Below, piece by piece: positions 1 to 64,000 of a stretch of 64,000 bases of DNA. This DNA is from the human T2T-CHM13v2.0 reference genome, Homo sapiens. The notes under the pieces are model-generated. The model saw only the letters and a program-made list of their open reading frames with translations, did no database searches and had not been told where the DNA came from. Location: the NCBI GenBank assembly GCA_009914755.4, contig CP068257.2, forward strand, positions 11,104,001 to 11,168,000. The letters are read 5' to 3'. The position numbers were made by a program, and so were the translations under genes. Each line of letters opens with the position of its first letter. Within the stretch, counting starts at the first letter, position 1.

Positions 1-282
1 AAAAATAGAGTTTCAAAGCTGCTCTGTAAAAAGAAAGGTTCCACTCTGTTAGCTGAGTACACACATCACAAACTTGTTTCTGAGAAACCTTCTGTCTCGT
101 TTTTATGGGAAGATATTTACTTTTCCACTGTAGGCATCAAAGCGCTCCAAATGTCCACATCCAGATACTCCAGAACGAGTGTTTCAAACCTGCTCTATGA
201 AAGGGAATCTTCAACTCTATGAGTTGAATGCAGAATCAGAAAGAAATTTCTGAGAATGCTGCTGTCTACCTTTTATTTGAAT

Positions 283-299
283 TCCCGCTTCCAACGAAA
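283..299 (-). promoter_or_regulatory. CENP-B box, HOR monomer 2 (intact)
   Basis: + strand TCCCGCTTCCAACGAAA, which is the reverse complement of the 17-bp CENP-B box nTTCGnnnnAnnCGGGn with all essential positions present. Confidence 0.9.
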
Positions 300-624
300 T
301 CCTCCAAGCTATCCAAATATCCACCTGCATTTTCCACAAAAAGAGTGTTTCAAAACTGCTCTATCAATAGAAATGTTCAACTCCTTTGGCTGGGTACACA
401 CATCACAAACAAGTTTCTGAGAATGCTTCTGTCTAGTTTTTATGGGAAGACGTTCCCTTTTTCACCAAAGGCATCAAAGCGCTCCAAATGTCCACTTCCA
501 GACACTACAAAAAGAGTGTTTCAAACGTGCTCTAAGAAAGCGAATGTTCAACTCTGTGACTTGAATGCAGATATCACAAAGTAGTTTCTGAGAGGGCTTC
601 TGTCTAGATTTTAGATGATGATAT

Positions 625-641
625 TCCCGTTTCCAACGAAA
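625..641 (-). promoter_or_regulatory. CENP-B box, monomer 4 (intact)
   Basis: TCCCGTTTCCAACGAAA. Confidence 0.9.
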
Positions 642-962
642 TCATTAGAGCTATCCAAATATCCACTTACAGTTTCTACAAAAAGAGTGTTTCCAAACTG
701 CTGCATCAAAAGAGAGGTTCCACTCTGTTAGCCGAGTACACACATCACAAACTTGTTTCTCAGAATCCTTCTGTCTCGTTTTTATGGGAAGATATTTACT
801 TTTTCACCGTAGGCATCAAAGCGCTCCAAATGTCCACATCCAGATACTCCAGAAAGAGTGTTTCAAACCTGCTCTATGAAAGGGAATCTTCAACTCTATG
901 AGTTGAATGCAGACATCAGAAAGAAATTTCTGAGAATGCTGCTGTCTACCTTTTATTTGAAT

Positions 963-979
963 TCCCGCTTCCAACGAAA
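963..979 (-). promoter_or_regulatory. CENP-B box, monomer 6 (intact)
   Basis: TCCCGCTTCCAACGAAA. Confidence 0.9.
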
Positions 980-1135
980 TCCTCCAAGCTATCCAAATAT
1001 CCACTTGCAGATTCCACAAAAAGAGTGTTTCAAAACTGCTCTCTATCAATGGCAAAGTTCAACTCTGTTAGTTGAGGACACATATCACCAACAAGTTTCT
1101 GAGAATGCTTCTGTCTATTTTTTATGGGAAGATAT

Positions 1136-1152
1136 TTCCTTTTTCACCGTAG
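1136..1152 (+). promoter_or_regulatory. pJalpha motif (exact match to TTCCTTTTYCACCRTAG), monomer 7
   Basis: TTCCTTTTTCACCGTAG lies at the monomer position that holds the CENP-B box in even-numbered monomers. m1, m3, m5 and m9 carry 1-3-mismatch versions ('ttacttttccactgtag', 'ttccctttttcaccaaag', 'ttactttttcaccgtag', 'ttccttttcaccaaag'). Confidence 0.75.
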
Positions 1153-1302
1153 GCGTCAAGGCGATCGAAATGTCCACTTCCACAAACTACAAAAAGAGTG
1201 TTTCAAACCTGCTCTATGAAAGGCCATGTTCATCTCTATGAGTTGAATGGAAATATCCGAAAGAAATTTCTGGGAATGCTGCTGTCTAGTGTTTATACGA
1301 AT

Positions 1303-1319
1303 TCCCGCTTCCAACGAAA
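1303..1319 (-). promoter_or_regulatory. CENP-B box, monomer 8 (intact)
   Basis: TCCCGCTTCCAACGAAA. Confidence 0.9.
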
Positions 1320-1643
1320 TCCTCAAAGCAATCCAAATATCCACTTGCAGAATCCACAAAAAGAGTGTTTCAAAACTGCTCTATCAATAGAAAGGTTCAA
1401 CTCTTTTAGTTGAGTACACACATCACAAACAAGTTTCTGAGAATGCTTCTGTCTGGCTTTTATTGGAAGACGTTTCCTTTTCACCAAAGGCATCAAAGCG
1501 CTCCAAATGTCCACTTCCAGATTCTTCCAAAAGAGTGTTTCAAACGTGGTCGAAGTAAGGGAATGTTCAACTCTGTGACTTGAATGCAGATATCACCAAG
1601 TAGTTTCTAATAGTGCTTCTGTCTACATTTTAGATGATGATAT

Positions 1644-1660
1644 TCCCGTTTCCAACGAAA
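1644..1660 (-). promoter_or_regulatory. CENP-B box, monomer 10 (intact)
   Basis: TCCCGTTTCCAACGAAA. Confidence 0.9.
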
Positions 1661-1814
1661 TCGTTAGAGCTATCCAAATATCCAGTTACAGTTTCTACCA
1701 AAAGGGTGTTTCCAAATTGCTGCATCAAAAGAAAGGTTCAACTCTGTTAGTTGAGGACACACATCACAAAGAAGTTTGTGAGAATGCTTCTGTCTAGATT
1801 TTGTATGACGATAT

Positions 1815-1831
1815 TCCCTTTTCCAACGATA
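1815..1831 (-). promoter_or_regulatory. Degenerate CENP-B box, monomer 11 (predicted non-binding)
   Basis: TCCCTTTTCCAACGATA. Both essential blocks are hit (CCCG->CCCT and CGAA->CGAT). This form is conserved in all 36 units. Confidence 0.8.
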
Positions 1832-1869
1832 TCGTTAAAGCAATCTAAATATCAATTTGCAGAATCCAC

Positions 1870-3738
1870 AAAAATAGAGTTTCAAAGCTGCTCTGTAAAA
1901 AGAAAGGTTCCACTCTGTTAGCTGAGTACACACATCACAAACTTGTTTCTGAGAAACCTTCTGTCTCGTTTTTATGGGAAGATATTTACTTTTCCACTGT
2001 AGGCATCAAAGCGCTCCAAATGTCCACATCCAGATACTCCAGAACGAGTGTTTCAAACCTGCTCTATGAAAGGGAATCTTCAACTCTATGAGTTGAATGC
2101 AGAATCAGAAAGAAATTTCTGAGAATGCTGCTGTCTACCTTTTATTTGAATTCCCGCTTCCAACGAAATCCTCCAAGCTATCCAAATATCCACCTGCATT
2201 TTCCACAAAAAGAGTGTTTCAAAACTGCTCTATCAATAGAAATGTTCAACTCCTTTGGCTGGGTACACACATCACAAACAAGTTTCTGAGAATGCTTCTG
2301 TCTAGTTTTTATGGGAAGACGTTCCCTTTTTCACCAAAGGCATCAAAGCGCTCCAAATGTCCACTTCCAGACACTACAAAAAGAGTGTTTCAAACGTGCT
2401 CTAAGAAAGCGAATGTTCAACTCTGTGACTTGAATGCAGATATCACAAAGTAGTTTCTGAGAGGGCTTCTGTCTAGATTTTAGATGATGATATTCCCGTT
2501 TCCAACGAAATCATTAGAGCTATCCAAATATCCACTTACAGTTTCTACAAAAAGAGTGTTTCCAAACTGCTGCATCAAAAGAGAGGTTCCACTCTGTTAG
2601 CCGAGTACACACATCACAAACTTGTTTCTCAGAATCCTTCTGTCTCGTTTTTATGGGAAGATATTTACTTTTTCACCGTAGGCATCAAAGCGCTCCAAAT
2701 GTCCACATCCAGATACTCCAGAAAGAGTGTTTCAAACCTGCTCTATGAAAGGGAATCTTCAACTCTATGAGTTGAATGCAGACATCAGAAAGAAATTTCT
2801 GAGAATGCTGCTGTCTACCTTTTATTTGAATTCCCGCTTCCAACGAAATCCTCCAAGCTATCCAAATATCCACTTGCAGATTCCACAAAAAGAGTGTTTC
2901 AAAACTGCTCTCTATCAATGGCAAAGTTCAACTCTGTTAGTTGAGGACACATATCACCAACAAGTTTCTGAGAATGCTTCTGTCTATTTTTTATGGGAAG
3001 ATATTTCCTTTTTCACCGTAGGCGTCAAGGCGATCGAAATGTCCACTTCCACAAACTACAAAAAGAGTGTTTCAAACCTGCTCTATGAAAGGCCATGTTC
3101 ATCTCTATGAGTTGAATGGAAATATCCGAAAGAAATTTCTGGGAATGCTGCTGTCTAGTTTTTATATGAATTCCGGCTTCCAACGAAATCCTCAAAGCAA
3201 TCCAAATATCCACTTGCAGAATCCACAAAAAGAGTGTTTCAAAACTGCTCTATCAATAGAAAGGTTCAACTCTTTTAGTTGAGTACACACATCACAAACA
3301 AGTTTCTGAGAATGCTTCTGTCTGGCTTTTATTGGAAGACGTTTCCTTTTCACCAAAGGCATCAAAGCGCTCCAAATGTCCACTTCCAGATTCTTCCAAA
3401 AGAGTGTTTCAAACGTGCTCGAAGTAAGGGAATGTTCTACTCTGTGACTTGAATGCAGATATCACCAAGTAGTTTCTAATAGTGCTTCTGTCTAGATTTT
3501 AGATGATGATATTCCCGTTTCCAACGAAATCGCTAGAGCTATCCAAATATCCAGTTACAGTTTCTACCAAAAGGGTGTTTCCAAATTGCTGCATCAAAAG
3601 AAAGGTTCAACTCTGTTAGTTGAGGACACACATCACAAAGAAGTTTGTGAGAATGCTTCTGTCTAGATTTTGTATGACGATATTCCCTTTTCCAACGATA
3701 TCGTTAAAGCAATCTAAATATCAATTTGCAGAATCCAC
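1870..3738 (-). repeat. HOR unit 2 (11-mer, 1869 bp), near-identical to unit 1
   Basis: Same anchor 1869 bp downstream. Shares the 'gcagaatcag' and 'gccgag' markers. The m8 CENP-B box is mutated CCCG->CCGG at 3175. Confidence 0.9.
3172..3188 (-). promoter_or_regulatory. Mutated CENP-B box (CCCG->CCGG), unit 2 monomer 8
   Basis: TCCGGCTTCCAACGAAA. Private to unit 2; the EcoRI site GAATTC just upstream is retained. Confidence 0.8.
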
Positions 3739-13084: not shown

Positions 13085-14954
13085 AAAAATAGAGTTTCAA
13101 AGCTGCTCTGTAAAAATAAAAGTTCCACTCTGTTAGCTGAGTACACACATCACAAACTTGTTTCTGAGAATCCTTCTGTCTCGTTTTTATGGGAAGATAT
13201 TTACTTTTTCACCGTAGGCATCAAAGCGCTCCAAATGTCCACATCCAGATACTCCAGAAAGACTGTTTCAAACCTGCTCTATGAAAGGGAATCTTCAACT
13301 CTATGAGTTGAATGCAGACATCAGAAAGAAATTTCTGAGAATGCTGCTGTCTACCTTTTATTTGAATTCCCGCTTCCAACGAAATCCTCCAAGCTATCCA
13401 AATATCCACTTGCATTTTCCACAACAAGAGTGTTTCAAAACTGCTCTATCAATAGAAATGTTCAACTCCTTTAGCTGGGTACACACATCACAAACAAGTT
13501 TCTGAGAATGCTTCTGTCTAGTTTTTATGGGAAGACGTTCCCTTTTTCACCAAAGGCATCAAAGCGCTCCAAATGTCCACTTCCAGACACTACAAAAAGA
13601 GTGTTTCAAACGTGCTCTAAGAAAGCGAATGTTCAACTCTGTGACTTGAATGCAGATATCACAAAGTAGTTACTGAGAGGGCTTCTGTCTAGATTTTAGA
13701 TGATGATATTCCCGTTTCCAACGAAATCATTAGAGCTATCCAAATATCCACTTACAGTTTCTACAAAAAGAGTGTTTCCAAACTGCTGCATCAAAAGAGA
13801 GGTTCCACTCTGTTAGCCGAGTACACACATCACAAACTTGTTTCTCAGAATCCTTCTGTCTCGTTTTTATGGGAAGATATTTACTTTTTCACCGTAGGCA
13901 TCAAAGCGCTCCAAATGTCCACATCCAGATACTCCAGAAAGAGTGTTTCAAACCTGCTCTATGAAAGGGAATCTTCAACTCTATGAGTTGAATGCAGACA
14001 TCAGAAAGAAATTTCTGAGAATGCTGCTGTCTACCTTTTATTTGAATTCCCGCTTCCAACGAAATCCTCCAAGCTATCCAAATATCCACTTGCAGATTCC
14101 ACAAAAAGAGTGTTTCAAAACTGCTCTCTATCAATGGCAAAGTTCAACTCTGTTAGTTGAGGACACATATCACCAACAAGTTTCTGAGAATGCTTCTGTC
14201 TATTTTTTATGGGAAGATATTTCCTTTTTCACCGTAGGCGTCAAGGCGATCGAAATGTCCACTTCCACAAACTACAAAAAGAGTGTTTCAAACCTGCTCT
14301 ATGAAAGGCCATGTTCATCTCTATGAGTTGAATGGAAATATCCGAAAGAAATTTCTGGGAATGCTGCTGTCTAGTGTTTATACGAATTCCCGCTTCCAAC
14401 GAAATCCTCAAAGCAATCCAAATATCCACTTGCAGAATCCACAAAAAGAGTGTTTCAAAACTGCTCTATCAATAGAAAGGTTCAACTCTTTTAGTTGAGT
14501 ACACACATCACGAACAAGTTTCTGAGAATGCTTCTGTCTGGCTTTTATTGGAAGACGTTTCCTTTTCACCAAAGGCATCAAAGCGCTCCAAATGTCCACT
14601 TCCAGATTCTTCCAAAAGAGTGTTTCAAACGTGCTCAAAGTAAGGGAATGTTCAACTCTGTGACTTGAATGCAGATATCACCAAGTAGTTTCTAATAGTG
14701 CTTCTGTCTACATTTTAGATGATGATATTCCCTTTTCCAACGAAATCGTTAGAGCTATCCAAATATCCAGTTACAGTTTCTACCAAAAGGGTGTTTCCAA
14801 ATTGCTGCATCAAAAGAAAGGTTCAACTCTGTTAGTTGAGGACACACATCACAAAGAAGTTTGTGAGAATGCTTCTGTCTAGATTTTGTATGACGATATT
14901 CCCTTTTCCAACGATATCGTTAAAGCAATCTAAATATCAATTTGCAGAATCCAC
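13085..14954 (-). repeat. HOR unit 8 (11-mer, 1870 bp)
   Basis: Anchor at 13085. m1 variants 'taaaaataaaagttcc' and 'ccagaaagactg' (m5-like patch). m5 'gccgag'. m10 box CCCG->CCCT (14729-14745). Confidence 0.9.
14729..14745 (-). promoter_or_regulatory. Mutated CENP-B box (CCCG->CCCT), monomer 10. First of 16 units carrying this lesion.
   Basis: TCCCTTTTCCAACGAAA. The same change is in units 8, 11, 13, 15, 17, 19, 21, 23, 25, 26, 28, 30, 32, 33 and 34. Confidence 0.8.
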
Positions 14955-48769: not shown

Positions 48770-50297
48770 AAAAATAGAGTTTCAAAGCTGCTCTGTAAAA
48801 AGAAAGGTTCCACTCTGTTAGCTGAGTACACACATCACAAACTTGTTTCTCAGAATCCTTCTGTCTCGTTTTTATGGGAAGATACTTACTTTTCCACCGT
48901 AGGCATCAAAGCGCTCCAAATGTCCACATCCAGATACTCCAGAACGAGTGTTTCAAACCTGCTCTATGAAAGGGAATCTTCAACTCTATGAGTTGAATGC
49001 AGACATCAGAAAGAAATTTCTGAGAATGCTGCTGTCTACCTTTTATTTGAATTCCCGCTTCCAACGAAATCCTCCAAGCTATCCAAATATCCACCTGCAT
49101 TTTCCACAACAAGAGTGTTTCAAAACTGCTCTATCAATAGAAATGTTCAACTCCTTTGGCTGGGTACACACATCACAAACAAGTTTCTGAGAATGCTTCT
49201 GTCTAGTTTTTATGGGAAGACGTTCCCTTTTTCACCAAAGGCATCCAAGCGCTCCAAATGTCCACATCCAGATACTCCAGAAAGAGTGTTTCAAACCTGC
49301 TCTATGAAAGGGAATCTTCAACTCTATGAGTTGAATGCAGACATCAGAAAGAAATTTCTGAGAATGCTGCTGTCTACCTTTTATTTGAATTCCCGCTTCC
49401 AACGAAATCCTCCAAGCTATCCAAATATCCACTTGCAGATTCCACAAAAAGAGTGTTTCAAAACTGCTCTCTATCAATGGCAAAGTTCAACTCTGTTAGT
49501 TGAGGACACATATCACCAACAAGTTTCTGAGAATGCTTCTGTCTATTTTTTATGGGAAGATATTTCCTTTTTCACCATAGGCGTCAAGGCGATCGAAATG
49601 TCCACTTCCACAAACTACAAAAAGAGTGTTTCAAACCTGCTCTATGAAAGGCCATGTTCATCTCTATGAGTTGAATGGAAATATCCGAAAGAAATTTCTG
49701 GGAATGCTGCTGTCTAGTGTTTATACGAATTCCCGCTTCCAACGAAATCCTCAAAGCAATCCAAATATCCACTTGCAGAATCCACAAAAAGAGTGTTTCA
49801 AAACTGCTCTATCAATAGAAAGGTTCAACTCTTTTAGTTGAGTACACACATCACGAACAAGTTTCTGAGAATGCTTCTGTCTGGCTTTTATTGGAAGACG
49901 TTTCCTTTTCAACAAAGGCATCAAAGCGCTCCAAATGTCCACTTCCAGATTCTTCCAAAAGAGTGTTTCAAACGTGCTCAAAGTAAGGAAATGTTCAACT
50001 CTGTGACTTGAATGCAGATATCACCAAGTAGTTTCTAATAGTGCTTCTGCCTACATTTTAGATGATGATATTCCCTTTTCCAACGAAATCGTTAGAGCTA
50101 TCCAAATATCCAGTTACAGTTTCTACCAAAAGGGTGTTTCCAAATTGCTGCATCAAAAGAAAGGTTCAACTCTGTTAGTTGAGGACACACATCACAAAGA
50201 AGTTTGTGAGAATGCTTCTGTCTAGATTTTGTATGACGATATTCCCTTTTCCAACGATATCGTTAAAGCAATCTAAATATCAATTTGCAGAATCCAC
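48770..50297 (-). repeat. HOR unit 28: 9-mer variant (1528 bp)
   Basis: Junction 'ggcatccaagcgc' at ~49243-49266. Private variant 'gtaaggaaatg' at ~49983. Confidence 0.9.
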
Positions 50298-52167
50298 AAA
50301 AATAGAGTTTCAAAGCTGCTCTGTAAAAAGAAAGGTTCCACTCTGTTAGCTGAGTACACACATCACAAACTTGTTTCTGAGAATCCTTCTGTCTCGTTTT
50401 TATGGGAAGATATTTACTTTTCCACCGTAGGCATCAAAGCGCTCCAAATGTCCACATCCAGATACTCCAGAACGAGTGTTTCAAACCTGCTCTATGAAAG
50501 GGAATCTTCAACTCTATGAGTTGAATGCAGACATCAGAAAGAAATTTCTGAGAATGCTGCTGTCTACCTTTTATTTGAATTCCCGCTTCCAACGAAATCC
50601 TCCAAGCTATCCAAATATCCACCTGCATTTTCCACAAAAAGAGTGTTTCAAAACTGCTCTATCAATAGAAATGTTCAACTCCTTTGGCTGGGTACACACA
50701 TCACAAACAAGTTTCTGAGAATGCTTCTGTCTAGTTTTTATGGGAAGACATTCCCTTTTTCACCAAAGACATCAAAGCGCTCCAAATGTCCACTTCCAGA
50801 CACTACAAAAAGAGTGTTTCAAACGTGCTCTAAGAAAGCGAATGTTCAACTCTGTGACTTGAATGCAGATATCACAAAGTAGTTTCTGAGAGGGCTTCTG
50901 TCTAGATTTTAGATGATGATATTCCCGTTTCCAACGAAATCATTAGAGCTATCCAAATATCCACTTACAGTTTCTACAAAAAGAGTGTTTCCAAACTGCT
51001 GCATCAAAAGAGAGGTTCCACTCTGTTAGCTGAGTACACACATCACAAACTTGTTTCTCAGAATCCTTCTGTCTCGTTTTTATGGGAAGATATTTACTTT
51101 TTCACCGTAGGCATCAAAGCGCTCCAAATGTCCACATCCAGATACTCCAGAAAGAGTGTTTCAAACCTGCTCTATGAAAGGGAATCTTCAACTCTATGAG
51201 TTGAATGCAGACATCAGAAAGAAATTTCTGAGAATGCTGCTGTCTACCTTTTATTTGAATTCCCGCTTCCAACGAAATCCTCCAAGCTATCCAAATATCC
51301 ACTTGCAGATTCCACAAAAAGAGTGTTTCAAAACTGCTCTCTATCAATGGCAAAGTTCAACTCTGTTAGTTGAGGACACATATCACCAACAAGTTTCTGA
51401 GAATGCTTCTGTCTATTTTTTATGGGAAGATATTTCCTTTTTCACCGTAGGCGTCAAGGCGATCGAAATGTCCACTTCCACAAACTACAAAAAGAGTGTT
51501 TCAAACCTGCTCTATGAAAGGCCATGTTCATCTCTATGAGTTGAATGGAAATATCCGAAAGAAATTTCTGGGAATGCTGCTGTCTAGTGTTTATACGAAT
51601 TCCCGCTTCCAACGTAATCCTCAAAGCAATCCAAATATCCACTTGCAGAATCCACAAAAAGAGTGTTTCAAAACTGCTCTATCAATAGAAAGGTTCAACT
51701 CTTTTAGTTGAGTACACACATCACGAACAAGTTTCTGAGAATGCTTCTGTCTGGCTTTTATTGGAAGACGTTTCCTTTTCACCAAAGGCATCAAAGCGCT
51801 CCAAATGTCCACTTCCAGATTCTTCCAAAAGAGTGTTTCAAACGTGCTCAAAGTAAGGGAATGTTCAACTCTGTGACTTGAATGCAGATATCACCAAGTA
51901 GTTTCTAATAGTGCTTCTGTCTACATTTTAGATGATGATATTCCCGTTTCCAACGAAATCGCTAGAGCTATCCAAATATCCAGTTACAGTTTCTACCAAA
52001 AGGGTGTTTCCAAATTGCTGCATCAAAAGAAAGGTTCAACTCTGTTAGTTGAGGACACACATCACAAAGAAGTTTGTGAGAATGCTTCTGTCTAGGTTTT
52101 GTATGACGATATTCCCTTTTCCAACGATATCGTTAAAGCAATCTAAATATCAATTTGCAGAATCCAC
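50298..52167 (-). repeat. HOR unit 29 (11-mer, 1870 bp; haplotype A)
   Basis: 'cgtaat' (51611), 'cgctagag' (51961), 'ctaggttttg' (52091). Confidence 0.9.
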
Positions 52168-54035
52168 AAAAATAGAGTTTCAAAGCTGCTCTGTAAAAAG
52201 AAAGGTTCCACTCTGTTAGCTGAGTACACACATCACAAATTTGTTTCTGAGAATCCTTCTGTCTCGTTTTTATGGGAAGATACTTACTTTTCCACCGTAG
52301 GCATCAAAGCGCTCCAAATGTCCACATCCAGATACTCCAGAACGAGTGTTTCAAACCTGCTCTATGAAAGGGAATCTTCAACTCTATGAGTTGAATGCAG
52401 ACATCAGAAAGAAATTTCTGAGAATGCTGCTGTCTACCTTTTATTTGAATTCCCGCTTCCAACGAAATCCTCCAAGCTATCCAAATATCCACCTGCATTT
52501 TCCACAACAAGAGTGTTTCAAAACTGCTCTATCAATAGAAATGTTCAACTCCTTTGGCTGGGTACACACATCACAAACAAGTTTCTGAGAATGCTTCTGT
52601 CTAGTTTTTATGGGAAGACGTTCCCTTTTTCACCAAAGGCATCAAAGCGCTCCAAATGTCCACTTCCAGACACTACAAAAAGAGTGTTTCAAACGTGCTC
52701 TAAGAAAGCGAATGTTCAACTCTGTGACTTGAATGCACATATCACAAAGTAGTTCCTGAGAGGGCTTCTGTCTAGATTTTAGATGATGATATTCCCGTTT
52801 CCAACAAAATCATTAGAGCTTCCAAATATCCACTTACAGTTTCTACAAAAAGAGTGTTTCCAAACTGCTGCATCAAAAGAGAGGTTCCACTCTGTTAGCT
52901 GAGTACACACATCACAAACTTGTTTCTCAGAATCCTTCTGTCTCGTTTTTATGGGAAGATTATACTTTTTCACCGTAGGCATCAAAGCGCTCCAAATGTC
53001 CACATCCAGATACTCCAGAAAGAGTGTTTCAAACCTGCCCTATGAAAGGGAATCTTCAACTCTATGAGTTGAATGCAGACATCAGAAAGAAATTTCTGAG
53101 AATGCTGCTGTCTACCTTTTATTTGAATTCCCGCTTCCAACGAAATCCTCCAAGCTATCCAAATATCCACTTGCAGATTCCACAAAAAGAGTGTTTCAAA
53201 ACTGCTCTCTATCAATGGCAAAGTTCAACTCTGTTAGTTGAGGACACATATCACCAACAAGTTTCTGAGAATGCTTCTGTCTATTTTTTATGGGAAGATA
53301 TTTCCTTTTTCACCGTAGGCGTCAAGGCGATCGAAATGTCCACTTCCACAAACTACAAAAAGAGTGTTTCAAACCTGCTCTATGAAAGGCCATGTTCATC
53401 TCTATGAGTTGAATGGAAATATCCGAAAGAAATTTCTGGGAATGCTGCTGTCTAGTGTTTATACGAATTCCCGCTTCCAACGAAATCCTCAAAGCAATCC
53501 AAATATCCACTTGCAGAATCCACAAAAAGAGTGTTTCAAAACTGCTCTATCAATAGAAAGGTTCAACTCTTTTAGTTGAGTACACACATCACGAACAAGT
53601 TTCTGAGAATGCTTCTGTCTGGCTTTTATTGGAAGACGTTTCCTTTTCACCAAAGGCATCAAAGCGCTCCAAATGTCCACTTCCAGATTCTTCCAAAAGA
53701 GTGTTTCAAACGTGCTCAAAGTAAGGGAATGTTCAACTCTGTGACTTGAATGCAGATATCACCAAGTAGTTTCTAATAGTGCTTCTGCCTACATTTTAGA
53801 TGATGATATTCCCTTTTCCAACGAAATCGTTAGAGCTATCCAAATATCCAGTTACAGTTTCTACCAAAAGGGTGTTTCCAAATTGCTGCATCAAAAGAAA
53901 GGTTCAACTCTGTTAGTTGAGGACACACATCACAAAGAAGTTTGTGAGAATGCTTCTGTCTAGATTTTGTATGACGATATTCCCTTTTCCAACGATATCG
54001 TTAAAGCAATCTAAATATCAATTTGCAGAATCCAC
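52168..54035 (-). repeat. HOR unit 30 (11-mer, 1868 bp; haplotype B1)
   Basis: 'cacaaatttg' private variant. 'gcacatatc'. 'gtagttcctgag'. m4 box CAAA (52793-52809). 'gattatac'. 'ctgcctac' with box CCCT. Confidence 0.9.
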
Positions 54036-55905
54036 AAAAATAGAGTTTCAAAGCTGCTCTGTAAAAAGAAAGGTTCCACTCTGTTAGCTGAGTACACACA
54101 TCACAAACTTGTTTCTGAGAATCCTTCTGTCTCGTTTTTATGGGAAGATATTTACTTTTCCACCGTAGGCATCAAAGCGCTCCAAATGTCCACATCCAGA
54201 TACTCCAGAACGAGTGTTTCAAACCTGCTCTATGAAAGGGAATCTTCAACTCTATGAGTTGAATGCAGACATCAGAAAGAAATTTCTGAGAATGCTGCTG
54301 TCTACCTTTTATTTGAATTCCCGCTTCCAACGAAATCCTCCAAGCTATCCAAATATCCACCTGCATTTTCCACAAAAAGAGTGTTTCAAAACTGCTCTAT
54401 CAATAGAAATGTTCAACTCCTTTGGCTGGGTACACACATCACAAACAAGTTTCTGAGAATGCTTCTGTCTAGTTTTTATGGGAAGACATTCCCTTTTTCA
54501 CCAAAGACATCAAAGCGCTCCAAATGTCCACTTCCAGACACTACAAAAAGAGTGTTTCAAACGTGCTCTAAGAAAGCGAATGTTCAACTCTGTGACTTGA
54601 ATGCAGATATCACAAAGTAGTTTCTGAGAGGGCTTCTGTCTAGATTTTAGATGATGATATTCCCGTTTCCAACGAAATCATTAGAGCTATCCAAATATCC
54701 ACTTACAGTTTCTACAAAAAGAGTGTTTCCAAACTGCTGCATCAAAAGAGAGGTTCCACTCTGTTAGCCGAGTACACACATCACAAACTTGTTTCTCAGA
54801 ATCCTTCTGTCTCGTTTTTATGGGAAGATATTTACTTTTTCACCGTAGGCATCAAAGCGCTCCAAATGTCCACATCCAGATACTCCAGAAAGAGTGTTTC
54901 AAACCTGCTCTATGAAAGGGAATCTTCAACTCTATGAGTTGAATGCAGACATCAGAAAGAAATTTCTGAGAATGCTGCTGTCTACCTTTTATTTGAATTC
55001 CCGCTTCCAACGAAATCCTCCAAGCTATCCAAATATCCACTTGCAGATTCCACAAAAAGAGTGTTTCAAAACTGCTCTCTATCAATGGCAAAGTTCAACT
55101 CTGTTAGTTGAGGACACATATCACCAACAAGTTTCTGAGAATGCTTCTGTCTATTTTTTATGGGAAGATATTTCCTTTTTCACCGTAGGCGTCAAGGCGA
55201 TCGAAATGTCCACTTCCACAAACTACAAAAAGAGTGTTTCAAACCTGCTCTATGAAAGGCCATGTTCATCTCTATGAGTTGAATGGAAATATCCGAAAGA
55301 AATTTCTGGGAATGCTGCTGTCTAGTGTTTATACGAATTCCCGCTTCCAACGTAATCCTCAAAGCAATCCAAATATCCACTTGCAGAATCCACAAAAAGA
55401 GTGTTTCAAAACTGCTCTATCAATAGAAAGGTTCAACTCTTTTAGTTGAGTACACACATCACGAACAAGTTTCTGAGAATGCTTCTGTCTGGCTTTTATT
55501 GGAAGACGTTTCCTTTTCACCAAAGGCATCAAAGCGCTCCAAATGTCCACTTCCAGATTCTTCCAAAAGAGTGTTTCAAACGTGCTCAAAGTAAGGGAAT
55601 GTTCAACTCTGTGACTTGAATGCAGATATCACCAAGTAGTTTCTAATAGTGCTTCTGTCTACATTTTAGATGATGATATTCCCGTTTCCAACGAAATCGC
55701 TAGAGCTATCCAAATATCCAGTTACAGTTTCTACCAAAAGGGTGTTTCCAAATTGCTGCATCAAAAGAAAGGTTCAACTCTGTTAGTTGAGGACACACAT
55801 CACAAAGAAGTTTGTGAGAATGCTTCTGTCTAGATTTTGTATGACGATATTCCCTTTTCCAACGATATCGTTAAAGCAATCTAAATATCAATTTGCAGAA
55901 TCCAC
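54036..55905 (-). repeat. HOR unit 31 (11-mer, 1870 bp; haplotype C)
   Basis: 'gccgag' (54771), 'cgtaat' (55351), m10 intact box. Confidence 0.9.
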
Positions 55906-57433
55906 AAAAATAGAGTTTCAAAGCTGCTCTGTAAAAAGAAAGGTTCCACTCTGTTAGCTGAGTACACACATCACAAACTTGTTTCTCAGAATCCTTCTGT
56001 CTCGTTTTTATGGGAAGATACTTACTTTTCCACCGTAGGCATCAAAGCGCTCCAAATGTCCACATCCAGATACTCCAGAACGAGTGTTTCAAACCTGCTC
56101 TATGAAAGGGAATCTTCAACTCTATGAGTTGAATGCAGACATCAGAAAGAAATTTCTGAGAATGCTGCTGTCTACCTTTTATTTGAATTCCCGCTTCCAA
56201 CGAAATCCTCCAAGCTATCCAAATATCCACCTGCATTTTCCACAACAAGAGTGTTTCAAAACTGCTCTATCAATAGAAATGTTCAACTCCTTTGGCTGGG
56301 TACACACATCACAAACAAGTTTCTGAGAATGCTTCTGTCTAGTTTTTATGGGAAGACGTTCCCTTTTTCACCAAAGGCATCCAAGCGCTCCAAATGTCCA
56401 CATCCAGATACTCCAGAAAGAGTGTTTCAAACCTGCTCTATGAAAGGGAATCTTCAACTCTATGAGTTGAATGCAGACATCAGAAAGAAATTTCTGAGAA
56501 TGCTGCTGTCTACCTTTTATTTGAATTCCCGCTTCCAACGAAATCCTCCAAGCTATCCAAATATCCACTTGCAGATTCCACAAAAAGAGTGTTTCAAAAC
56601 TGCTCTCTATCAATGGCAAAGTTCAACTCTGTTAGTTGAGGACACATATCACCAACAAGTTTCTGAGAATGCTTCTGTCTATTTTTTATGGGAAGATATT
56701 TCCTTTTTCACCATAGGCGTCAAGGCGATCGAAATGTCCACTTCCACAAACTACAAAAAGAGTGTTTCAAACCTGCTCTATGAAAGGCCATGTTCATCTC
56801 TATGAGTTGAATGGAAATATCCGAAAGAAATTTCTGGGAATGCTGCTGTCTAGTGTTTATACGAATTCCCGCTTCCAACGAAATCCTCAAAGCAATCCAA
56901 ATATCCACTTGCAGAATCCACAAAAAGAGTGTTTCAAAACTGCTCTATCAATAGAAAGGTTCAACTCTTTTAGTTGAGTACACACATCACGAACAAGTTT
57001 CTGAGAATGCTTCTGTCTGGCTTTTATTGGAAGACGTTTCCTTTTCAACAAAGGCATCAAAGCGCTCCAAATGTCCACTTCCAGATTCTTCCAAAAGAGT
57101 GTTTCAAACGTGCTCAAAGTAAGGGAATGTTCAACTCTGTGACTTGAATGCAGATATCACCAAGTAGTTTCTAATAGTGCTTCTGCCTACATTTTAGATG
57201 ATGATATTCCCTTTTCCAACGAAATCGTTAGAGCTATCCAAATATCCAGTTACAGTTTCTACCAAAAGGGTGTTTCCAAATTGCTGCATCAAAAGAAAGG
57301 TTCAACTCTGTTAGTTGAGGACACACATCACAAAGAAGTTTGTGAGAATGCTTCTGTCTAGATTTTGTATGACGATATTCCCTTTTCCAACGATATCGTT
57401 AAAGCAATCTAAATATCAATTTGCAGAATCCAC
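55906..57433 (-). repeat. HOR unit 32: 9-mer variant (1528 bp)
   Basis: Junction 'ggcatccaagcgc' at ~56380-56403. 184-aa fusion ORF at 56251. Confidence 0.9.
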
Positions 57434-59303
57434 AAAAATAGAGTTTCAAAGCTGCTCTGTAAAAAGAAAGGTTCCACTCTGTTAGCTGAGTACACACATC
57501 ACAAACTTGTTTCTGAGAATCCTTCTGTCTCGTTTTTATGGGAAGATATTTACTTTTCCACCGTAGGCATCAAAGCGCTCCAAATGTCCACATCCAGATA
57601 CTCCAGAACGAGTGTTTCAAACCTGCTCTATGAAAGGGAATCTTCAACTCTATGAGTTGAATGCAGACATCAGAAAGAAATTTCTGAGAATGCTGCTGTC
57701 TACCTTTTATTTGAATTCCCGCTTCCAACGAAATCCTCCAAGCTATCCAAATATCCACCTGCATTTTCCACAAAAAGAGTGTTTCAAAACTGCTCTATCA
57801 ATAGAAATGTTCAACTCCTTTGGCTGGGTACACACATCACAAACAAGTTTCTGAGAATGCTTCTGTCTAGTTTTTATGGGAAGACATTCCCTTTTTCACC
57901 AAAGACATCAAAGCGCTCCAAATGTCCACTTCCAGACACTACAAAAAGAGTGTTTCAAACGTGCTCTAAGAAAGCGAATGTTCAACTCTGTGACTTGAAT
58001 GCAGATATCACAAAGTAGTTTCTGAGAGGGCTTCTGTCTAGATTTTAGATGATGATATTCCCGTTTCCAACGAAATCATTAGAGCTATCCAAATATCCAC
58101 TTACAGTTTCTACAAAAAGAGTGTTTCCAAACTGCTGCATCAAAAGAGAGGTTCCACTCTGTTAGCTGAGTACACACATCACAAACTTGTTTCTCAGAAT
58201 CCTTCTGTCTCGTTTTTATGGGAAGATATTTACTTTTTCACCGTAGGCATCAAAGCGCTCCAAATGTCCACATCCAGATACTCCAGAAAGAGTGTTTCAA
58301 ACCTGCTCTATGAAAGGGAATCTTCAACTCTATGAGTTGAATGCAGACATCAGAAAGAAATTTCTGAGAATGCTGCTGTCTACCTTTTATTTGAATTCCC
58401 GCTTCCAACGAAATCCTCCAAGCTATCCAAATATCCACTTGCAGATTCCACAAAAAGAGTGTTTCAAAACTGCTCTCTATCAATGGCAAAGTTCAACTCT
58501 GTTAGTTGAGGACACATATCACCAACAAGTTTCTGAGAATGCTTCTGTCTATTTTTTATGGGAAGATATTTCCTTTTTCACCGTAGGCGTCAAGGCGATC
58601 GAAATGTCCACTTCCACAAACTACAAAAAGAGTGTTTCAAACCTGCTCTATGAAAGGCCATGTTCATCTCTATGAGTTGAATGGAAATATCCGAAAGAAA
58701 TTTCTGGGAATGCTGCTGTCTAGTGTTTATACGAATTCCCGCTTCCAACGAAATCCTCAAAGCAATCCAAATATCCACTTGCAGAATCCACAAAAAGAGT
58801 GTTTCAAAACTGCTCTATCAATAGAAAGGTTCAACTCTTTTAGTTGAGTACACACATCACGAACAAGTTTCTGAGAATGCTTCTGTCTGGCTTTTATTGG
58901 AAGACGTTTCCTTTTCAACAAAGGCATCAAAGCGCTCCAAATGTCCACTTCCAGATTCTTCCAAAAGAGTGTTTCAAACGTGCTCAAAGTAAGGGAATGT
59001 TCAACTCTGTGACTTGAATGCAGATATCACCAAGTAGTTTCTAATAGTGCTTCTGCCTACATTTTAGATGATGATATTCCCTTTTCCAACGAAATCGTTA
59101 GAGCTATCCAAATATCCAGTTACAGTTTCTACCAAAAGGGTGTTTCCAAATTGCTGCATCAAAAGAAAGGTTCAACTCTGTTAGTTGAGGACACACATCA
59201 CAAAGAAGTTTGTGAGAATGCTTCTGTCTAGATTTTGTATGACGATATTCCCTTTTCCAACGATATCGTTAAAGCAATCTAAATATCAATTTGCAGAATC
59301 CAC
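57434..59303 (-). repeat. HOR unit 33 (11-mer, 1870 bp; A-like first half, B-like second half)
   Basis: m3 'gacatcaaag' and 'gcagatatc', but m8 'cgaaat', m9 'ttcaacaaagg', m10 'ctgcctac' with box CCCT. Confidence 0.88.
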
Positions 59304-61173
59304 AAAAATAGAGTTTCAAAGCTGCTCTGTAAAAAGAAAGGTTCCACTCTGTTAGCTGAGTACACACATCACAAACTTGTTTCTGAGAATCCTTCTGTCT
59401 CGTTTTTATGGGAAGATATTTACTTTTCCACCGTAGGCATCAAAGCGCTCCAAATGTCCACATCCAGATACTCCAGAACGAGTGTTTCAAACCTGCTCTA
59501 TGAAAGGGAATCTTCAACTCTATGAGTTGAATGCAGACATCAGAAAGAAATTTCTGAGAATGCTGCTGTCTACCTTTTATTTGAATTCCCGCTTCCAACG
59601 AAATCCTCCAAGCTATCCAAATATCCACCTGCATTTTCCACAAAAAGAGTGTTTCAAAACTGCTCTATCAATAGAAATGTTCAACTCCTTTGGCTGGGTA
59701 CACACATCACAAACAAGTTTCTGAGAATGCTTCTGTCTAGTTTTTATGGGAAGACATTCCCTTTTTCACCAAAGACATCAAAGCGCTCCAAATGTCCACT
59801 TCCAGACACTACAAAAAGAGTGTTTCAAACGTGCTCTAAGAAAGCGAATGTTCAACTCTGTGACTTGAATGCAGATATCACAAAGTAGTTTCTGAGAGGG
59901 CTTCTGTCTAGATTTTAGATGATGATATTCCCGTTTCCAACGAAATCATTAGAGCTATCCAAATATCCACTTACAGTTTCTACAAAAAGAGTGTTTCCAA
60001 ACTGCTGCATCAAAAGAGAGGTTCCACTCTGTTAGCTGAGTACACACATCACAAACTTGTTTCTCAGAATCCTTCTGTCTCGTTTTTATGGGAAGATATT
60101 TACTTTTTCACCGTAGGCATCAAAGCGCTCCAAATGTCCACATCCAGATACTCCAGAAAGAGTGTTTCAAACCTGCTCTATGAAAGGGAATCTTCAACTC
60201 TATGAGTTGAATGCAGACATCAGAAAGAAATTTCTGAGAATGCTGCTGTCTACCTTTTATTTGAATTCCCGCTTCCAACGAAATCCTCCAAGCTATCCAA
60301 ATATCCACTTGCAGATTCCACAAAAAGAGTGTTTCAAAACTGCTCTCTATCAATGGCAAAGTTCAACTCTGTTAGTTGAGGACACATATCACCAACAAGT
60401 TTCTGAGAATGCTTCTGTCTATTTTTTATGGGAAGATATTTCCTTTTTCACCGTAGGCGTCAAGGCGATCGAAATGTCCACTTCCACAAACTACAAAAAG
60501 AGTGTTTCAAACCTGCTCTATGAAAGGCCATGTTCATCTCTATGAGTTGAATGGAAATATCCGAAAGAAATTTCTGGGAATGCTGCTGTCTAGTGTTTAT
60601 ACGAATTCCCGCTTCCAACGTAATCCTCAAAGCAATCCAAATATCCACTTGCAGAATCCACAAAAAGAGTGTTTCAAAACTGCTCTATCAATAGAAAGGT
60701 TCAACTCTTTTAGTTGAGTACACACATCACGAACAAGTTTCTGAGAATGCTTCTGTCTGGCTTTTATTGGAAGACGTTTCCTTTTCACCAAAGGCATCAA
60801 AGCGCTCCAAATGTCCACTTCCAGATTCTTCCAAAAGAGTGTTTCAAACGTGCTCAAAGTAAGGGAATGTTCAACTCTGTGACTTGAATGCAGATATCAC
60901 CAAGTAGTTTCTAATAGTGCTTCTGCCTACATTTTAGATGATGATATTCCCTTTTCCAACGAAATCGTTAGAGCTATCCAAATATCCAGTTACAGTTTCT
61001 ACCAAAAGGGTGTTTCCAAATTGCTGCATCAAAAGAAAGGTTCAACTCTGTTAGTTGAGGACACACATCACAAAGAAGTTTGTGAGAATGCTTCTGTCTA
61101 GATTTTGTATGACGATATTCCCTTTTCCAACGATATCGTTAAAGCAATCTAAATATCAATTTGCAGAATCCAC
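59304..61173 (-). repeat. HOR unit 34 (11-mer, 1870 bp; A-like unit in the slot where B1 is expected)
   Basis: A markers through m8 ('cgtaat' at 60611) and none of the B1 markers (no 'gcacatatc', no 'gattatac', no m4 CAAA). m10 does carry 'ctgcctac' with box CCCT. Confidence 0.88.
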
Positions 61174-63043
61174 AAAAATAGAGTTTCAAAGCTGCTCTGT
61201 AAAAAGAAAGGTTCCACTCTGTTAGCTGAGTACACACATCACAAACTTGTTTCTGAGAATCCTTCTGTCTCGTTTTTATGGGAAGATATTTACTTTTCCA
61301 CCGTAGGCATCAAAGCGCTCCAAATGTCCACATCCAGATACTCCAGAACGAGTGTTTCAAACCTGCTCTATGAAAGGGAATCTTCAACTCTATGAGTTGA
61401 ATGCAGACATCAGAAAGAAATTTCTGAGAATGCTGCTGTCTACCTTTTATTTGAATTCCCGCTTCCAACGAAATCCTCCAAGCTATCCAAATATCCACCT
61501 GCATTTTCCACAAAAAGAGTGTTTCAAAACTGCTCTATCAATAGAAATGTTCAACTCCTTTGGCTGGGTACACACATCACAAACAAGTTTCTGAGAATGC
61601 TTCTGTCTAGTTTTTATGGGAAGACATTCCCTTTTTCACCAAAGACATCAAAGCGCTCCAAATGTCCACTTCCAGACACTACAAAAAGAGTGTTTCAAAC
61701 GTGCTCTAAGAAAGCGAATGTTCAACTCTGTGACTTGAATGCAGATATCACAAAGTAGTTTCTGAGAGGGCTTCTGTCTAGATTTTAGATGATGATATTC
61801 CCGTTTCCAACGAAATCATTAGAGCTATCCAAATATCCACTTACAGTTTCTACAAAAAGAGTGTTTCCAAACTGCTGCATCAAAAGAGAGGTTCCACTCT
61901 GTTAGCCGAGTACACACATCACAAACTTGTTTCTCAGAATCCTTCTGTCTCGTTTTTATGGGAAGATATTTACTTTTTCACCGTAGGCATCAAAGCGCTC
62001 CAAATGTCCACATCCAGATACTCCAGAAAGAGTGTTTCAAACCTGCTCTATGAAAGGGAATCTTCAACTCTATGAGTTGAATGCAGACATCAGAAAGAAA
62101 TTTCTGAGAATGCTGCTGTCTACCTTTTATTTGAATTCCCGCTTCCAACGAAATCCTCCAAGCTATCCAAATATCCACTTGCAGATTCCACAAAAAGAGT
62201 GTTTCAAAACTGCTCTCTATCAATGGCAAAGTTCAACTCTGTTAGTTGAGGACACATATCACCAACAAGTTTCTGAGAATGCTTCTGTCTATTTTTTATG
62301 GGAAGATATTTCCTTTTTCACCGTAGGCGTCAAGGCGATCGAAATGTCCACTTCCACAAACTACAAAAAGAGTGTTTCAAACCTGCTCTATGAAAGGCCA
62401 TGTTCATCTCTATGAGTTGAATGGAAATATCCGAAAGAAATTTCTGGGAATGCTGCTGTCTAGTGTTTATACGAATTCCCGCTTCCAACGTAATCCTCAA
62501 AGCAATCCAAATATCCACTTGCAGAATCCACAAAAAGAGTGTTTCAAAACTGCTCTATCAATAGAAAGGTTCAACTCTTTTAGTTGAGTACACACATCAC
62601 GAACAAGTTTCTGAGAATGCTTCTGTCTGGCTTTTATTGGAAGACGTTTCCTTTTCACCAAAGGCATCAAAGCGCTCCAAATGTCCACTTCCAGATTCTT
62701 CCAAAAGAGTGTTTCAAACGTGCTCAAAGTAAGGGAATGTTCAACTCTGTGACTTGAATGCAGATATCACCAAGTAGTTTCTAATAGTGCTTCTGTCTAC
62801 ATTTTAGATGATGATATTCCCGTTTCCAACGAAATCGCTAGAGCTATCCAAATATCCAGTTACAGTTTCTACCAAAAGGGTGTTTCCAAATTGCTGCATC
62901 AAAAGAAAGGTTCAACTCTGTTAGTTGAGGACACACATCACAAAGAAGTTTGTGAGAATGCTTCTGTCTAGATTTTGTATGACGATATTCCCTTTTCCAA
63001 CGATATCGTTAAAGCAATCTAAATATCAATTTGCAGAATCCAC
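61174..63043 (-). repeat. HOR unit 35 (11-mer, 1870 bp; haplotype C)
   Basis: 'gccgag' (61911), 'cgtaat' (62471), m10 intact box. Confidence 0.9.
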
Positions 63044-64000
63044 AAAAATAGAGTTTCAAAGCTGCTCTGTAAAAAGAAAGGTTCCACTCTGTTAGCTGAG
63101 TACACACATCACAAACTTGTTTCTCAGAATCCTTCTGTCTCGTTTTTATGGGAAGATACTTACTTTTCCACCGTAGGCATCAAAGCGCTCCAAATGTCCA
63201 CATCCAGATACTCCAGAACGAGTGTTTCAAACCTGCTCTATGAAAGGGAATCTTCAACTCTATGAGTTGAATGCAGACATCAGAAAGAAATTTCTGAGAA
63301 TGCTGCTGTCTACCTTTTATTTGAATTCCCGCTTCCAACGAAATCCTCCAAGCTATCCAAATATCCACCTGCATTTTCCACAACAAGAGTGTTTCAAAAC
63401 TGCTCTATCAATAGAAATGTTCAACTCCTTTGGCTGGGTACACACATCACAAACAAGTTTCTGAGAATGCTTCTGTCTAGTTTTTATGGGAAGACGTTCC
63501 CTTTTTCACCAAAGGCATCCAAGCGCTCCAAATGTCCACATCCAGATACTCCAGAAAGAGTGTTTCAAACCTGCTCTATGAAAGGGAATCTTCAACTCTA
63601 TGAGTTGAATGCAGACATCAGAAAGAAATTTCTGAGAATGCTGCTGTCTACCTTTTATTTGAATTCCCGCTTCCAACGAAATCCTCCAAGCTATCCAAAT
63701 ATCCACTTGCAGATTCCACAAAAAGAGTGTTTCAAAACTGCTCTCTATCAATGGCAAAGTTCAACTCTGTTAGTTGAGGACACATATCACCAACAAGTTT
63801 CTGAGAATGCTTCTGTCTATTTTTTATGGGAAGATATTTCCTTTTTCACCATAGGCGTCAAGGCGATCGAAATGTCCACTTCCACAAACTACAAAAAGAG
63901 TGTTTCAAACCTGCTCTATGAAAGGCCATGTTCATCTCTATGAGTTGAATGGAAATATCCGAAAGAAATTTCTGGGAATGCTGCTGTCTAGTGTTTATAC
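63044..64000 (-). repeat. HOR unit 36: 9-mer variant, truncated by the window end
   Basis: Anchor at 63044. m3/m5 junction 'ggcatccaagcgc' at ~63518-63541. 184-aa fusion ORF at 63389. Confidence 0.85.

What the first reader, a model, noticed from the sequence alone, without database searches (positions are those of the whole stretch)
1..64000. Window is a pure centromeric alpha-satellite HOR array, not a gene-bearing or prokaryotic locus
I see 171-bp-class monomers with canonical CENP-B boxes and pJalpha motifs. Multimer lengths are strictly quantised at 1190, 1528 and 1867-1870 bp, so there are no TE insertions. There are no unique spacers and no start/stop-bounded genes with distinct composition. 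Every ORF in the supplied track recurs with the repeat period on both strands. Any 'novel system' hunt here has to be about array architecture, not proteins.
Basis: partly seen in the sequence, partly recalled or inferred. Interest (0 to 1): 0.5.

Follow-up and report, generated by a model that had tools for sequence, protein, structure and literature searches.

The report
Human chromosome 21 centromere alpha satellite
The whole window is tandem alpha-satellite DNA from the core of the human chromosome 21 centromere (the D21Z1 11-monomer repeat, T2T-CHM13 chr21 at about 11.104-11.168 Mb), which is already sequenced, annotated and published, so it is ordinary.

Summary
All 64,000 bases are head-to-tail alpha satellite: 376 monomers of 166-173 bp in 11 types. 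They form 36 higher-order repeat (HOR) units: 29 11-mers (1867-1870 bp), five complete 9-mers (1528 bp) plus a truncated sixth, and one 7-mer (1190 bp). There is no insertion, unique spacer, gene, tRNA or Rfam RNA. The repeat lies on the minus strand and carries 133 intact CENP-B boxes and 35 exact pJalpha motifs.

It is the alpha21-I / D21Z1 / S2C13/21H1L 11-mer of suprachromosomal family 2. Both published "Cen21" qPCR primers match every unit. The published T2T-CHM13 chr21 consensus monomers align at 98-100% and tile 99.8% of the window.

The published chr21 coordinates of seven variant HOR copies equal my window positions plus exactly 11,104,000. That places the window at T2T-CHM13 chr21:11,104,001-11,168,000, plus strand, at the centre of the 340-kb active array. 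Published estimates place it inside the CENP-A region there.

The finer architecture is a 3.7-kb two-unit repeat and a 7.1-kb four-unit super-repeat. The 9-mer and 7-mer arose by in-register unequal crossover. This architecture has also been described already. Novelty: none. Interest: low.

The parts
1..64000 (-). Uninterrupted alpha-satellite array of the S2C13/21H1L (D21Z1, alpha21-I) 11-mer HOR. The conventional monomer orientation is on the minus strand. It corresponds to T2T-CHM13 chr21:11,104,001-11,168,000.
2..1870 (-). One canonical 11-monomer HOR unit (1869 bp). Monomers alternate A-type (1, 3, 5, 7, 9) and B-type (2, 4, 6, 8, 10). Monomer 11 is B-like with a degenerate box and breaks the dimer rhythm.
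283..299 (-). Example CENP-B box. It reads TCCCGCTTCCAACGAAA on the plus strand, which is TTTCGTTGGAAGCGGGA on the minus strand. It is one of 133 intact boxes.
1136..1153 (+). Example exact pJalpha motif, TTCCTTTTTCACCGTAGG, in monomer 7. It is one of 35.
13086..14955 (-). An 11-mer whose second monomer is closer to type 6 than to type 2. It is probably a gene conversion between monomers that are 97% identical. It is the most divergent 11-mer in the window and sits next to the 7-mer.
14956..16145 (-). The single 7-mer HOR variant (1190 bp). A 680-bp in-register deletion fuses monomer 1 to monomer 5 at monomer position 81. It matches the published variant copy at chr21:11,118,525.
16146..29232 (-). 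Seven 11-mers alternating between two sequence haplotypes (A B A B A B A). This forms a 3.74-kb, 22-monomer super-unit. Divergence is 0.75 substitutions per kb at lag 2 and 7.9 per kb at lag 1.
29233..64000 (-). A 7.14-kb, 42-monomer super-repeat of the form [9-mer, A, B, A]. One copy is shortened to three units (43505-48770). Units 33 and 34 are hybrid haplotypes.
29233..30760 (-). 9-mer HOR variant (1528 bp). A 342-bp in-register deletion fuses monomer 3 to monomer 5. It derives from the B haplotype, with 3 mismatches to unit 19. Identical or nearly identical copies lie at 36369-37896, 43505-45032, 48771-50298 and 55907-57434, and a truncated copy starts at 63045.

Best explanation
The window is the central 64 kb of the active alpha-satellite array of human chromosome 21. 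This array is named D21Z1, alpha21-I or S2C13/21H1L, and belongs to suprachromosomal family 2. The sequence is that of the T2T-CHM13 assembly at about chr21:11,104,001-11,168,000, plus strand.

It encodes nothing. It works as the DNA substrate of the centromere. CENP-B binds the 17-bp boxes found in every second monomer. CENP-A nucleosomes and the kinetochore assemble epigenetically on a hypomethylated stretch of the array.

The array evolves by unequal crossover and gene conversion. In-register exchange between similar A-type monomers produced the 9-mer (3/5 hybrid) and the 7-mer (1/5 hybrid). Blocks of two units (A-B) and then four units (9mer-A-B-A) were amplified locally.

Shown here: the sequence identity, the array anatomy, the deletion junctions and the haplotype periodicity. 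Taken from the literature: the genomic position and the CENP-A and hypomethylation overlap. Inferred: the order of the amplification events.
For: A continuous 171-bp array covers the window and 99.9% of it is repeated 24-mers. There are 11 monomer types in 36 HOR units.

The published Cen21 primers (PMC4694756, PMC7679138) match. The forward primer matches 71 times exactly on the plus strand. The reverse primer matches 35 times, once per unit that carries monomer 3, with 0-1 mismatch on the minus strand. Neither matches in shuffled sequence.

The ten CHM13 chr21 consensus monomers from PMC12385485 align at 98-100%. They run in the published order and cover 99.8% of the window.

The published chr21 coordinates of variant copies are 11,118,525; 11,132,802; 11,139,938; 11,147,074; 11,152,340; 11,159,476 and 11,166,614. 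Each equals my window position 14,525; 28,802; 35,938; 43,074; 48,340; 55,476 and 62,614 plus 11,104,000. The spacings 14277, 7136, 7136, 5266, 7136 and 7138 are asymmetric, so they also fix the strand.

The Altemose et al. supplement lists 11 copies of the 9-mer variant 1-7_10-11 on chr21 and none on chr13. D13Z1/D21Z1 is classed as a live SF2 HOR.

CHM13v1.0 CENP-A lies at 11.7-11.9 Mb and the hypomethylated dip (CDR) at 11.8-11.9 Mb on chr21. The window maps to about 11.84-11.905 Mb in v1.0 coordinates.
Against: Nothing in the sequence argues against this.

There are four caveats. No human reference genome was available to align against, so the placement rests on published coordinates and consensus sequences. 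The exact offset assumes that the published 'start' of a copy is the t1/t2 monomer boundary, and it could otherwise shift by about 170 bp. The conversion from v1.0 to v2.0 coordinates, about 736.6 kb, is estimated from array start coordinates and could be off by 1-2 kb. CENP-A occupancy and methylation cannot be read from sequence.
Confidence: 0.97

Rival explanations
1. The window is the chromosome 13 copy of the same HOR family (D13Z1) rather than the chromosome 21 copy.
For: The two arrays share the S2C13/21H1L HOR and cannot be separated with ordinary probes or primers.
Against: Seven variant-copy positions match the published chr21 coordinates to the base. In CHM13, chr13 is dominated by the 1-7 variant (691 copies against 580 11-mers) and has no 1-7_10-11 9-mer. 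chr21 has 161 11-mers and 11 such 9-mers. The window has 29 11-mers, 6 9-mers and 1 7-mer.
Confidence: 0.01
2. The window is the chr21 array of a different human genome or haplotype, not CHM13, that happens to share this local structure.
For: I could not align the window to the assembly itself. Closely related centromere haplotypes do exist in the population.
Against: Centromere arrays differ greatly between individuals. Base-exact agreement of six consecutive spacings, with an offset that is a round multiple of 32,000, points to the CHM13 assembly itself.
Confidence: 0.02
3. The window is a different SF2 11-mer HOR (for example D8Z2 or D15Z3), a non-human primate alpha satellite, or a cloned alphoid construct built for artificial chromosomes.
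For: Other SF2 arrays also have 11-monomer units of about 1.87 kb with dimeric A/B alternation (one search lists S2C15H1L as an 11-mer).
Against: The primer and consensus matches are specific to the 13/21 HOR. There is no vector sequence. The natural haplotype structure and variant units are unlike a synthetic multimer.
Confidence: 0.005

Closest known systems
S2C13/21H1L (D21Z1 / alpha21-I) 11-mer alpha-satellite HOR, active array of T2T-CHM13 chr21
   Same: Every feature checked agrees. These are the 11-monomer unit of about 1870 bp, the monomer sequences, the Cen21 primer sites, five CENP-B-box-bearing monomers per canonical unit, the 9-mer variant, its CCCV periodic pattern and the exact variant coordinates.
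   Different: Nothing differs. The window is a piece of this array, not a relative of it.
D13Z1 (chr13 copy of S2C13/21H1L)
   Same: It has the same HOR family and monomer set.
   Different: In CHM13 it is dominated by the 1-7 seven-monomer variant and lacks the 1-7_10-11 nine-monomer variant. Its coordinates do not fit.
Super-HORs and local multi-unit duplications described in T2T centromeres (layered expansion model, Altemose et al.; 'CCCV' pattern, Gluncic et al. 2025)
   Same: Blocks of two and four units were amplified at the centre of the array. Copies at the block period are nearly identical (0-1 substitutions per kb), while neighbouring units differ by 6-8 per kb.
   Different: My analysis adds only detail. 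It identifies the A/B haplotype alternation upstream of the 9-mer zone, shows that the 9-mer derives from the B haplotype, and locates the exact in-register junctions.

Membership tests
Alpha satellite (primate centromeric satellite) | Head-to-tail monomers of about 171 bp, AT-rich, 60-100% identical to each other | tested here: met
   There are 376 monomers of 166-173 bp. GC content is 0.39. Identity between monomer types is 65-97%.
Alpha satellite (primate centromeric satellite) | An A/B box at a fixed monomer position: a CENP-B box in B-type monomers and a pJalpha motif in A-type monomers | tested here: met
   There are 133 intact CENP-B boxes in monomers 2, 4, 6, 8 and 10. Exact or near pJalpha motifs occur in monomers 1, 3, 5 and 7 at the equivalent position.
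Homogeneous higher-order repeat (HOR) array | Multimeric units that are at least about 95% identical to each other, while monomers within a unit are 20-35% divergent | tested here: met
   Mean unit-to-unit identity is 99.4%. Identity between monomers within a unit is 65-97%.
Suprachromosomal family 2 | D1(B)-D2(A) dimeric alternation, often with one hybrid monomer per HOR | tested here: inconclusive
   Strict A/B alternation with a 338-bp sub-period, plus one odd B-like monomer (11), is seen. No D1/D2 versus J1/J2 class consensus was available to tell SF2 from SF1 directly. The SF2 label comes from the literature for D13Z1/D21Z1.
S2C13/21H1L (D13Z1/D21Z1, alpha21-I) | 11-monomer unit whose sequence matches the published HOR | tested here: met
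   The published chr21 consensus monomers align at 98-100% and tile 99.8% of the window. Both Cen21 primers match every unit that carries monomer 3.
T2T-CHM13 chr21 active array, specific locus | Order and spacing of structural-variant HOR copies | tested here: met
   Seven of seven published variant coordinates in range equal the window position plus 11,104,000. No extra variants appear in either list.
Functional centromere core (CENP-A chromatin, hypomethylated dip) | CENP-A enrichment and CpG hypomethylation over the sequence | not testable with these tools
   This rests on the literature only. Table S17 of the Altemose et al. preprint puts CENP-A at 11.7-11.9 Mb and the dip at 11.8-11.9 Mb in CHM13v1.0 chr21. 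The window converts to about 11.84-11.905 Mb.

The most novel reading that the evidence does not exclude
The most novel reading left open concerns the 7.1-kb [9mer-A-B-A] super-repeat in the right half of the window. It may be the youngest layer of the CHM13 chr21 array and the sequence that positions the kinetochore there. The A and B haplotypes alternately lose CENP-B boxes, keeping 4 and 3 boxes per unit against 5 in the canonical unit. That loss might matter for CENP-A placement. Altemose et al. list the 'young HOR-hap' status of chr21 as unknown, so this has not been stated explicitly.
Probability: 0.1. Interest if true: 0.3.

Novelty: already known. Interest (0 to 1): 0.08.

Why it matters
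It matters mainly as a triage result. This window can be removed from any search for new genes or systems. It is eukaryotic satellite DNA from a finished, annotated human reference centromere.

The chromosome 21 centromere is of medical interest because of trisomy 21 and Robertsonian translocations. This particular sequence and its variant pattern are already published. The small additions made here are incremental: the exact crossover junctions, the A/B haplotype alternation and the per-haplotype CENP-B box counts.

Tried and rejected
Several literature routes led nowhere.
- A search for the name S2C13/21H1L failed on the slash and then found nothing.
- I looked for the LNA primers of Contreras-Galindo et al. 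2017 that separate D13Z1 from D21Z1. The supplements were not held, or held only data tables.
- The PMC copy of Altemose et al. 2022 was not held, so I used the bioRxiv version instead.

One analysis was misleading. The first MAFFT alignment of HOR units misplaced the deletions, which made the 9-mers look 17-27 substitutions per kb diverged. Re-aligning with a long-gap model corrected this to 0-9 per kb.

Negative controls all came back empty.
- Pfam on the six distinct longest ORFs gave only a sub-threshold DUF1363 hit (16.1 bits against a cutoff of 24.2, E = 0.014), which I treat as chance.
- The Rfam gathering scan gave 0 hits.
- The tRNA scan gave 0 hits.

Nothing in the window is a plausible gene.
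Full report
**Observation.** The window is one uninterrupted tandem array. Tandem Repeats Finder reports a single array over 1-63,998 with periods of 171 bp and 338 bp. Base composition is flat, with GC at 0.385-0.393 in every 2-kb bin. Repeated 24-mers cover 99.9% of all bases, and the only non-repeated runs are 18 and 20 bp long.

Anchoring on the conserved AAAAGAGTGTTTC motif splits the window into 376 monomers of 166-173 bp. These fall into 11 types. Every monomer is at least 97.1% identical to its type reference (mean 99.3%), while the types are 65-97% identical to each other.

**Higher-order structure.** The monomers form 36 HOR units:
- 29 are 11-mers of 1867-1870 bp.
- Five are complete 9-mers of 1528 bp, and a sixth is cut by the window end.
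- One is a 7-mer of 1190 bp, at 14956-16145.

One nuance concerns the strong 1190-bp k-mer spacing signal. It is mostly an internal echo, because monomers 5 and 6 resemble monomers 1 and 2 of the next unit at 92% and 97% identity. Only one real 7-mer unit exists.

**Protein-binding motifs.** The array is in reverse orientation relative to the usual alpha-satellite consensus. All 133 intact CENP-B boxes lie on the minus strand and read TCCCG[CT]TTCCAACGAA[AG] on the plus strand. They sit in monomer types 2, 4, 6, 8 and 10. Monomer 11 always carries a degenerate box.

Boxes are lost in three ways in a subset of units: CGAA to CAAA in monomer 4, CGAA to CGTA in monomer 8, and CCCG to CCCT in monomer 10. 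The exact pJalpha motif occurs 35 times, only in monomer 7. Monomers 1, 5 and 3 carry versions with one or two mismatches.

**No genes.** All 204 ORFs of at least 70 aa recur at the repeat period on both strands. The longest, 184 aa, spans the 9-mer deletion junction and appears once in each 9-mer. Six representative ORFs gave no Pfam hit above threshold, only a chance-level DUF1363 match at 16 bits against a cutoff of 24.2. Rfam and tRNA scans were empty.

**Which repeat it is.** Two primers widely used as "Cen21" or "chromosome 21 alpha-satellite" qPCR primers are GTCTACCTTTTATTTGAATTCCCG and AGGGAATGTCTTCCCATAAAAACT (PMC4694756 and PMC7679138, citing Nakano et al. 2003).
- The first matches 71 times exactly on the plus strand.
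- The second matches 35 times with 0-1 mismatch on the minus strand, once per unit that carries monomer 3.
- Neither matches in shuffled sequence.

Gluncic et al. 2025 (PMC12385485) give consensus sequences for the ten monomer types of the T2T-CHM13 chr21 11-mer. These align to the window at 98-100%, and the residual differences look like PDF-to-text errors in homopolymer runs. All align on the minus strand, in the published order t1-t8, t5, t9, t10, and cover 99.8% of the window. D13Z1/D21Z1 is classed as a live SF2 HOR, systematic name S2C13/21H1L, an 11-mer.

**Where it is.** The legend of Figure 3d in the same paper lists chr21 coordinates of variant HOR copies. The table compares them with my positions for the matching t1/t2 monomer boundaries in the window.

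| Published chr21 coordinate | Window position | Variant |
|---|---|---|
| 11,118,525 | 14,525 | 7-mer |
| 11,132,802 | 28,802 | 9-mer |
| 11,139,938 | 35,938 | 9-mer |
| 11,147,074 | 43,074 | 9-mer |
| 11,152,340 | 48,340 | 9-mer |
| 11,159,476 | 55,476 | 9-mer |
| 11,166,614 | 62,614 | 9-mer |

All seven agree with a single offset of exactly 11,104,000. The spacing series 14277, 7136, 7136, 5266, 7136, 7138 is asymmetric, so it also fixes the strand. The window is therefore T2T-CHM13 chr21:11,104,001-11,168,000, plus strand, give or take one monomer depending on how the authors define a copy's start. The published array runs from 10,963,339 to 11,302,559, so the window straddles its midpoint.

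There is independent support for chromosome 21 over chromosome 13 in the Altemose et al. preprint supplement. It lists 161 canonical units and 11 copies of the 9-mer variant 1-7_10-11 on CHM13 chr21. On chr13 it lists 691 copies of 1-7, 580 canonical units and no such 9-mer.

**How it works.** The sequence encodes nothing. It is the DNA platform of the centromere. From established knowledge, CENP-B binds the 17-bp boxes, and CENP-A nucleosomes and the kinetochore assemble epigenetically on a hypomethylated part of the active array.

For CHM13v1.0, Table S17 of the Altemose preprint gives CENP-A on chr21 at 11.7-11.9 Mb (0.247 Mb) and the methylation dip at 11.8-11.9 Mb (0.118 Mb). The array starts at 11,699,928 in v1.0 and at 10,963,339 in the coordinates used by Gluncic et al.. 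That gives an offset of about 736.6 kb and places the window at about 11.84-11.905 Mb in v1.0. Allowing for the rounding of the table values, at least about 56 kb of the window lies in the CENP-A range and at least about 27 kb lies in the dip range. This step is inference from published numbers, not something I could measure.

**How it evolved.** A long-gap alignment shows two deletions.
- The 9-mer lacks 342 bp, unit positions 469-810. The junction is in register between monomers 3 and 5, so the unit is really 1-2-(3/5)-6-...-11.
- The 7-mer lacks 680 bp, unit positions 82-761. The junction is in register between monomers 1 and 5.

Both are what unequal crossover between similar A-type monomers would produce.

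Pairwise divergence between units shows three zones.
- Units 1-9 are individually distinct, at about 6 substitutions per kb, with no sub-period.
- Units 10-16 alternate between two haplotypes, A and B. Divergence is 0.75 per kb at lag 2 and 7.9 per kb at lag 1. This makes a 3.74-kb super-unit.
- Units 17-36 repeat a 7.14-kb block of [9-mer, A, B, A]. Copies are identical or differ by 1-2 per kb.

The 9-mer derives from haplotype B, with 3 mismatches to unit 19. One block is shortened to three units around a hybrid unit (unit 26), and units 33 and 34 are also hybrids.

The likely history is amplification of the A-B pair, then a deletion in one B copy, then amplification of the four-unit block. 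That order is inferred. Gluncic et al. describe the same pattern as CCCVCCCVCCV.... The general behaviour, recent multi-unit expansion in the middle of an active array, is the layered-expansion picture of Altemose et al..

**Verdict.** The sequence is a known, named, published and annotated part of a reference genome. Nothing here is new apart from minor descriptive detail. Interest is low.

Noticed in passing
window 435-458 and every later monomer-3 copy (35 sites): The widely used Cen21 reverse qPCR primer matches exactly at only 16 of the 35 sites. The other 19 have C instead of T at a CpG (AGGGAACGTC). The two states largely track the A and B HOR haplotypes. The primer therefore has a one-base mismatch to about half the units in this part of the array.
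   Followed up: partly
window 16146-64000, monomers 4, 8 and 10 of each unit: CENP-B box loss is haplotype-specific. A-type units have lost the monomer-8 box (CGAA to CGTA). B-type units and 9-mers have lost the monomer-10 box (CCCG to CCCT), and B-type units have also lost the monomer-4 box (CGAA to CAAA). Recently amplified units thus carry 3-4 boxes rather than 5. Boxes in monomers 2 and 6 are intact in every unit.
   Followed up: partly
window 29577-30131 and the same position in each 9-mer: The longest ORF in the window (184 aa, GTG start) exists only because the 342-bp deletion joins two reading frames. It has a sub-threshold Pfam DUF1363 match (E = 0.014, 16 bits against a cutoff of 24.2), which I judge to be chance.
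   Followed up: yes
window 13086-16145 (units 8 and 9): Unit 8, the 11-mer just before the single 7-mer, is the most divergent 11-mer, with 16 differences from unit 7. Its second monomer is converted towards type 6. This suggests a local cluster of recombination or conversion events.
   Followed up: partly
window 45033-46900 (unit 26) and 57435-61174 (units 33, 34): These units are intermediate between the A and B haplotypes (2-6 substitutions per kb to each). Unit 26 sits in the one super-repeat copy that has three units instead of four. That is consistent with an unequal crossover that merged an A unit and a B unit.
   Followed up: partly
whole window: The inferred genomic offset, 11,104,000, equals 347 x 32,000. 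This suggests that scan windows are cut on a 32-kb grid of the T2T-CHM13 chromosome.
   Followed up: no
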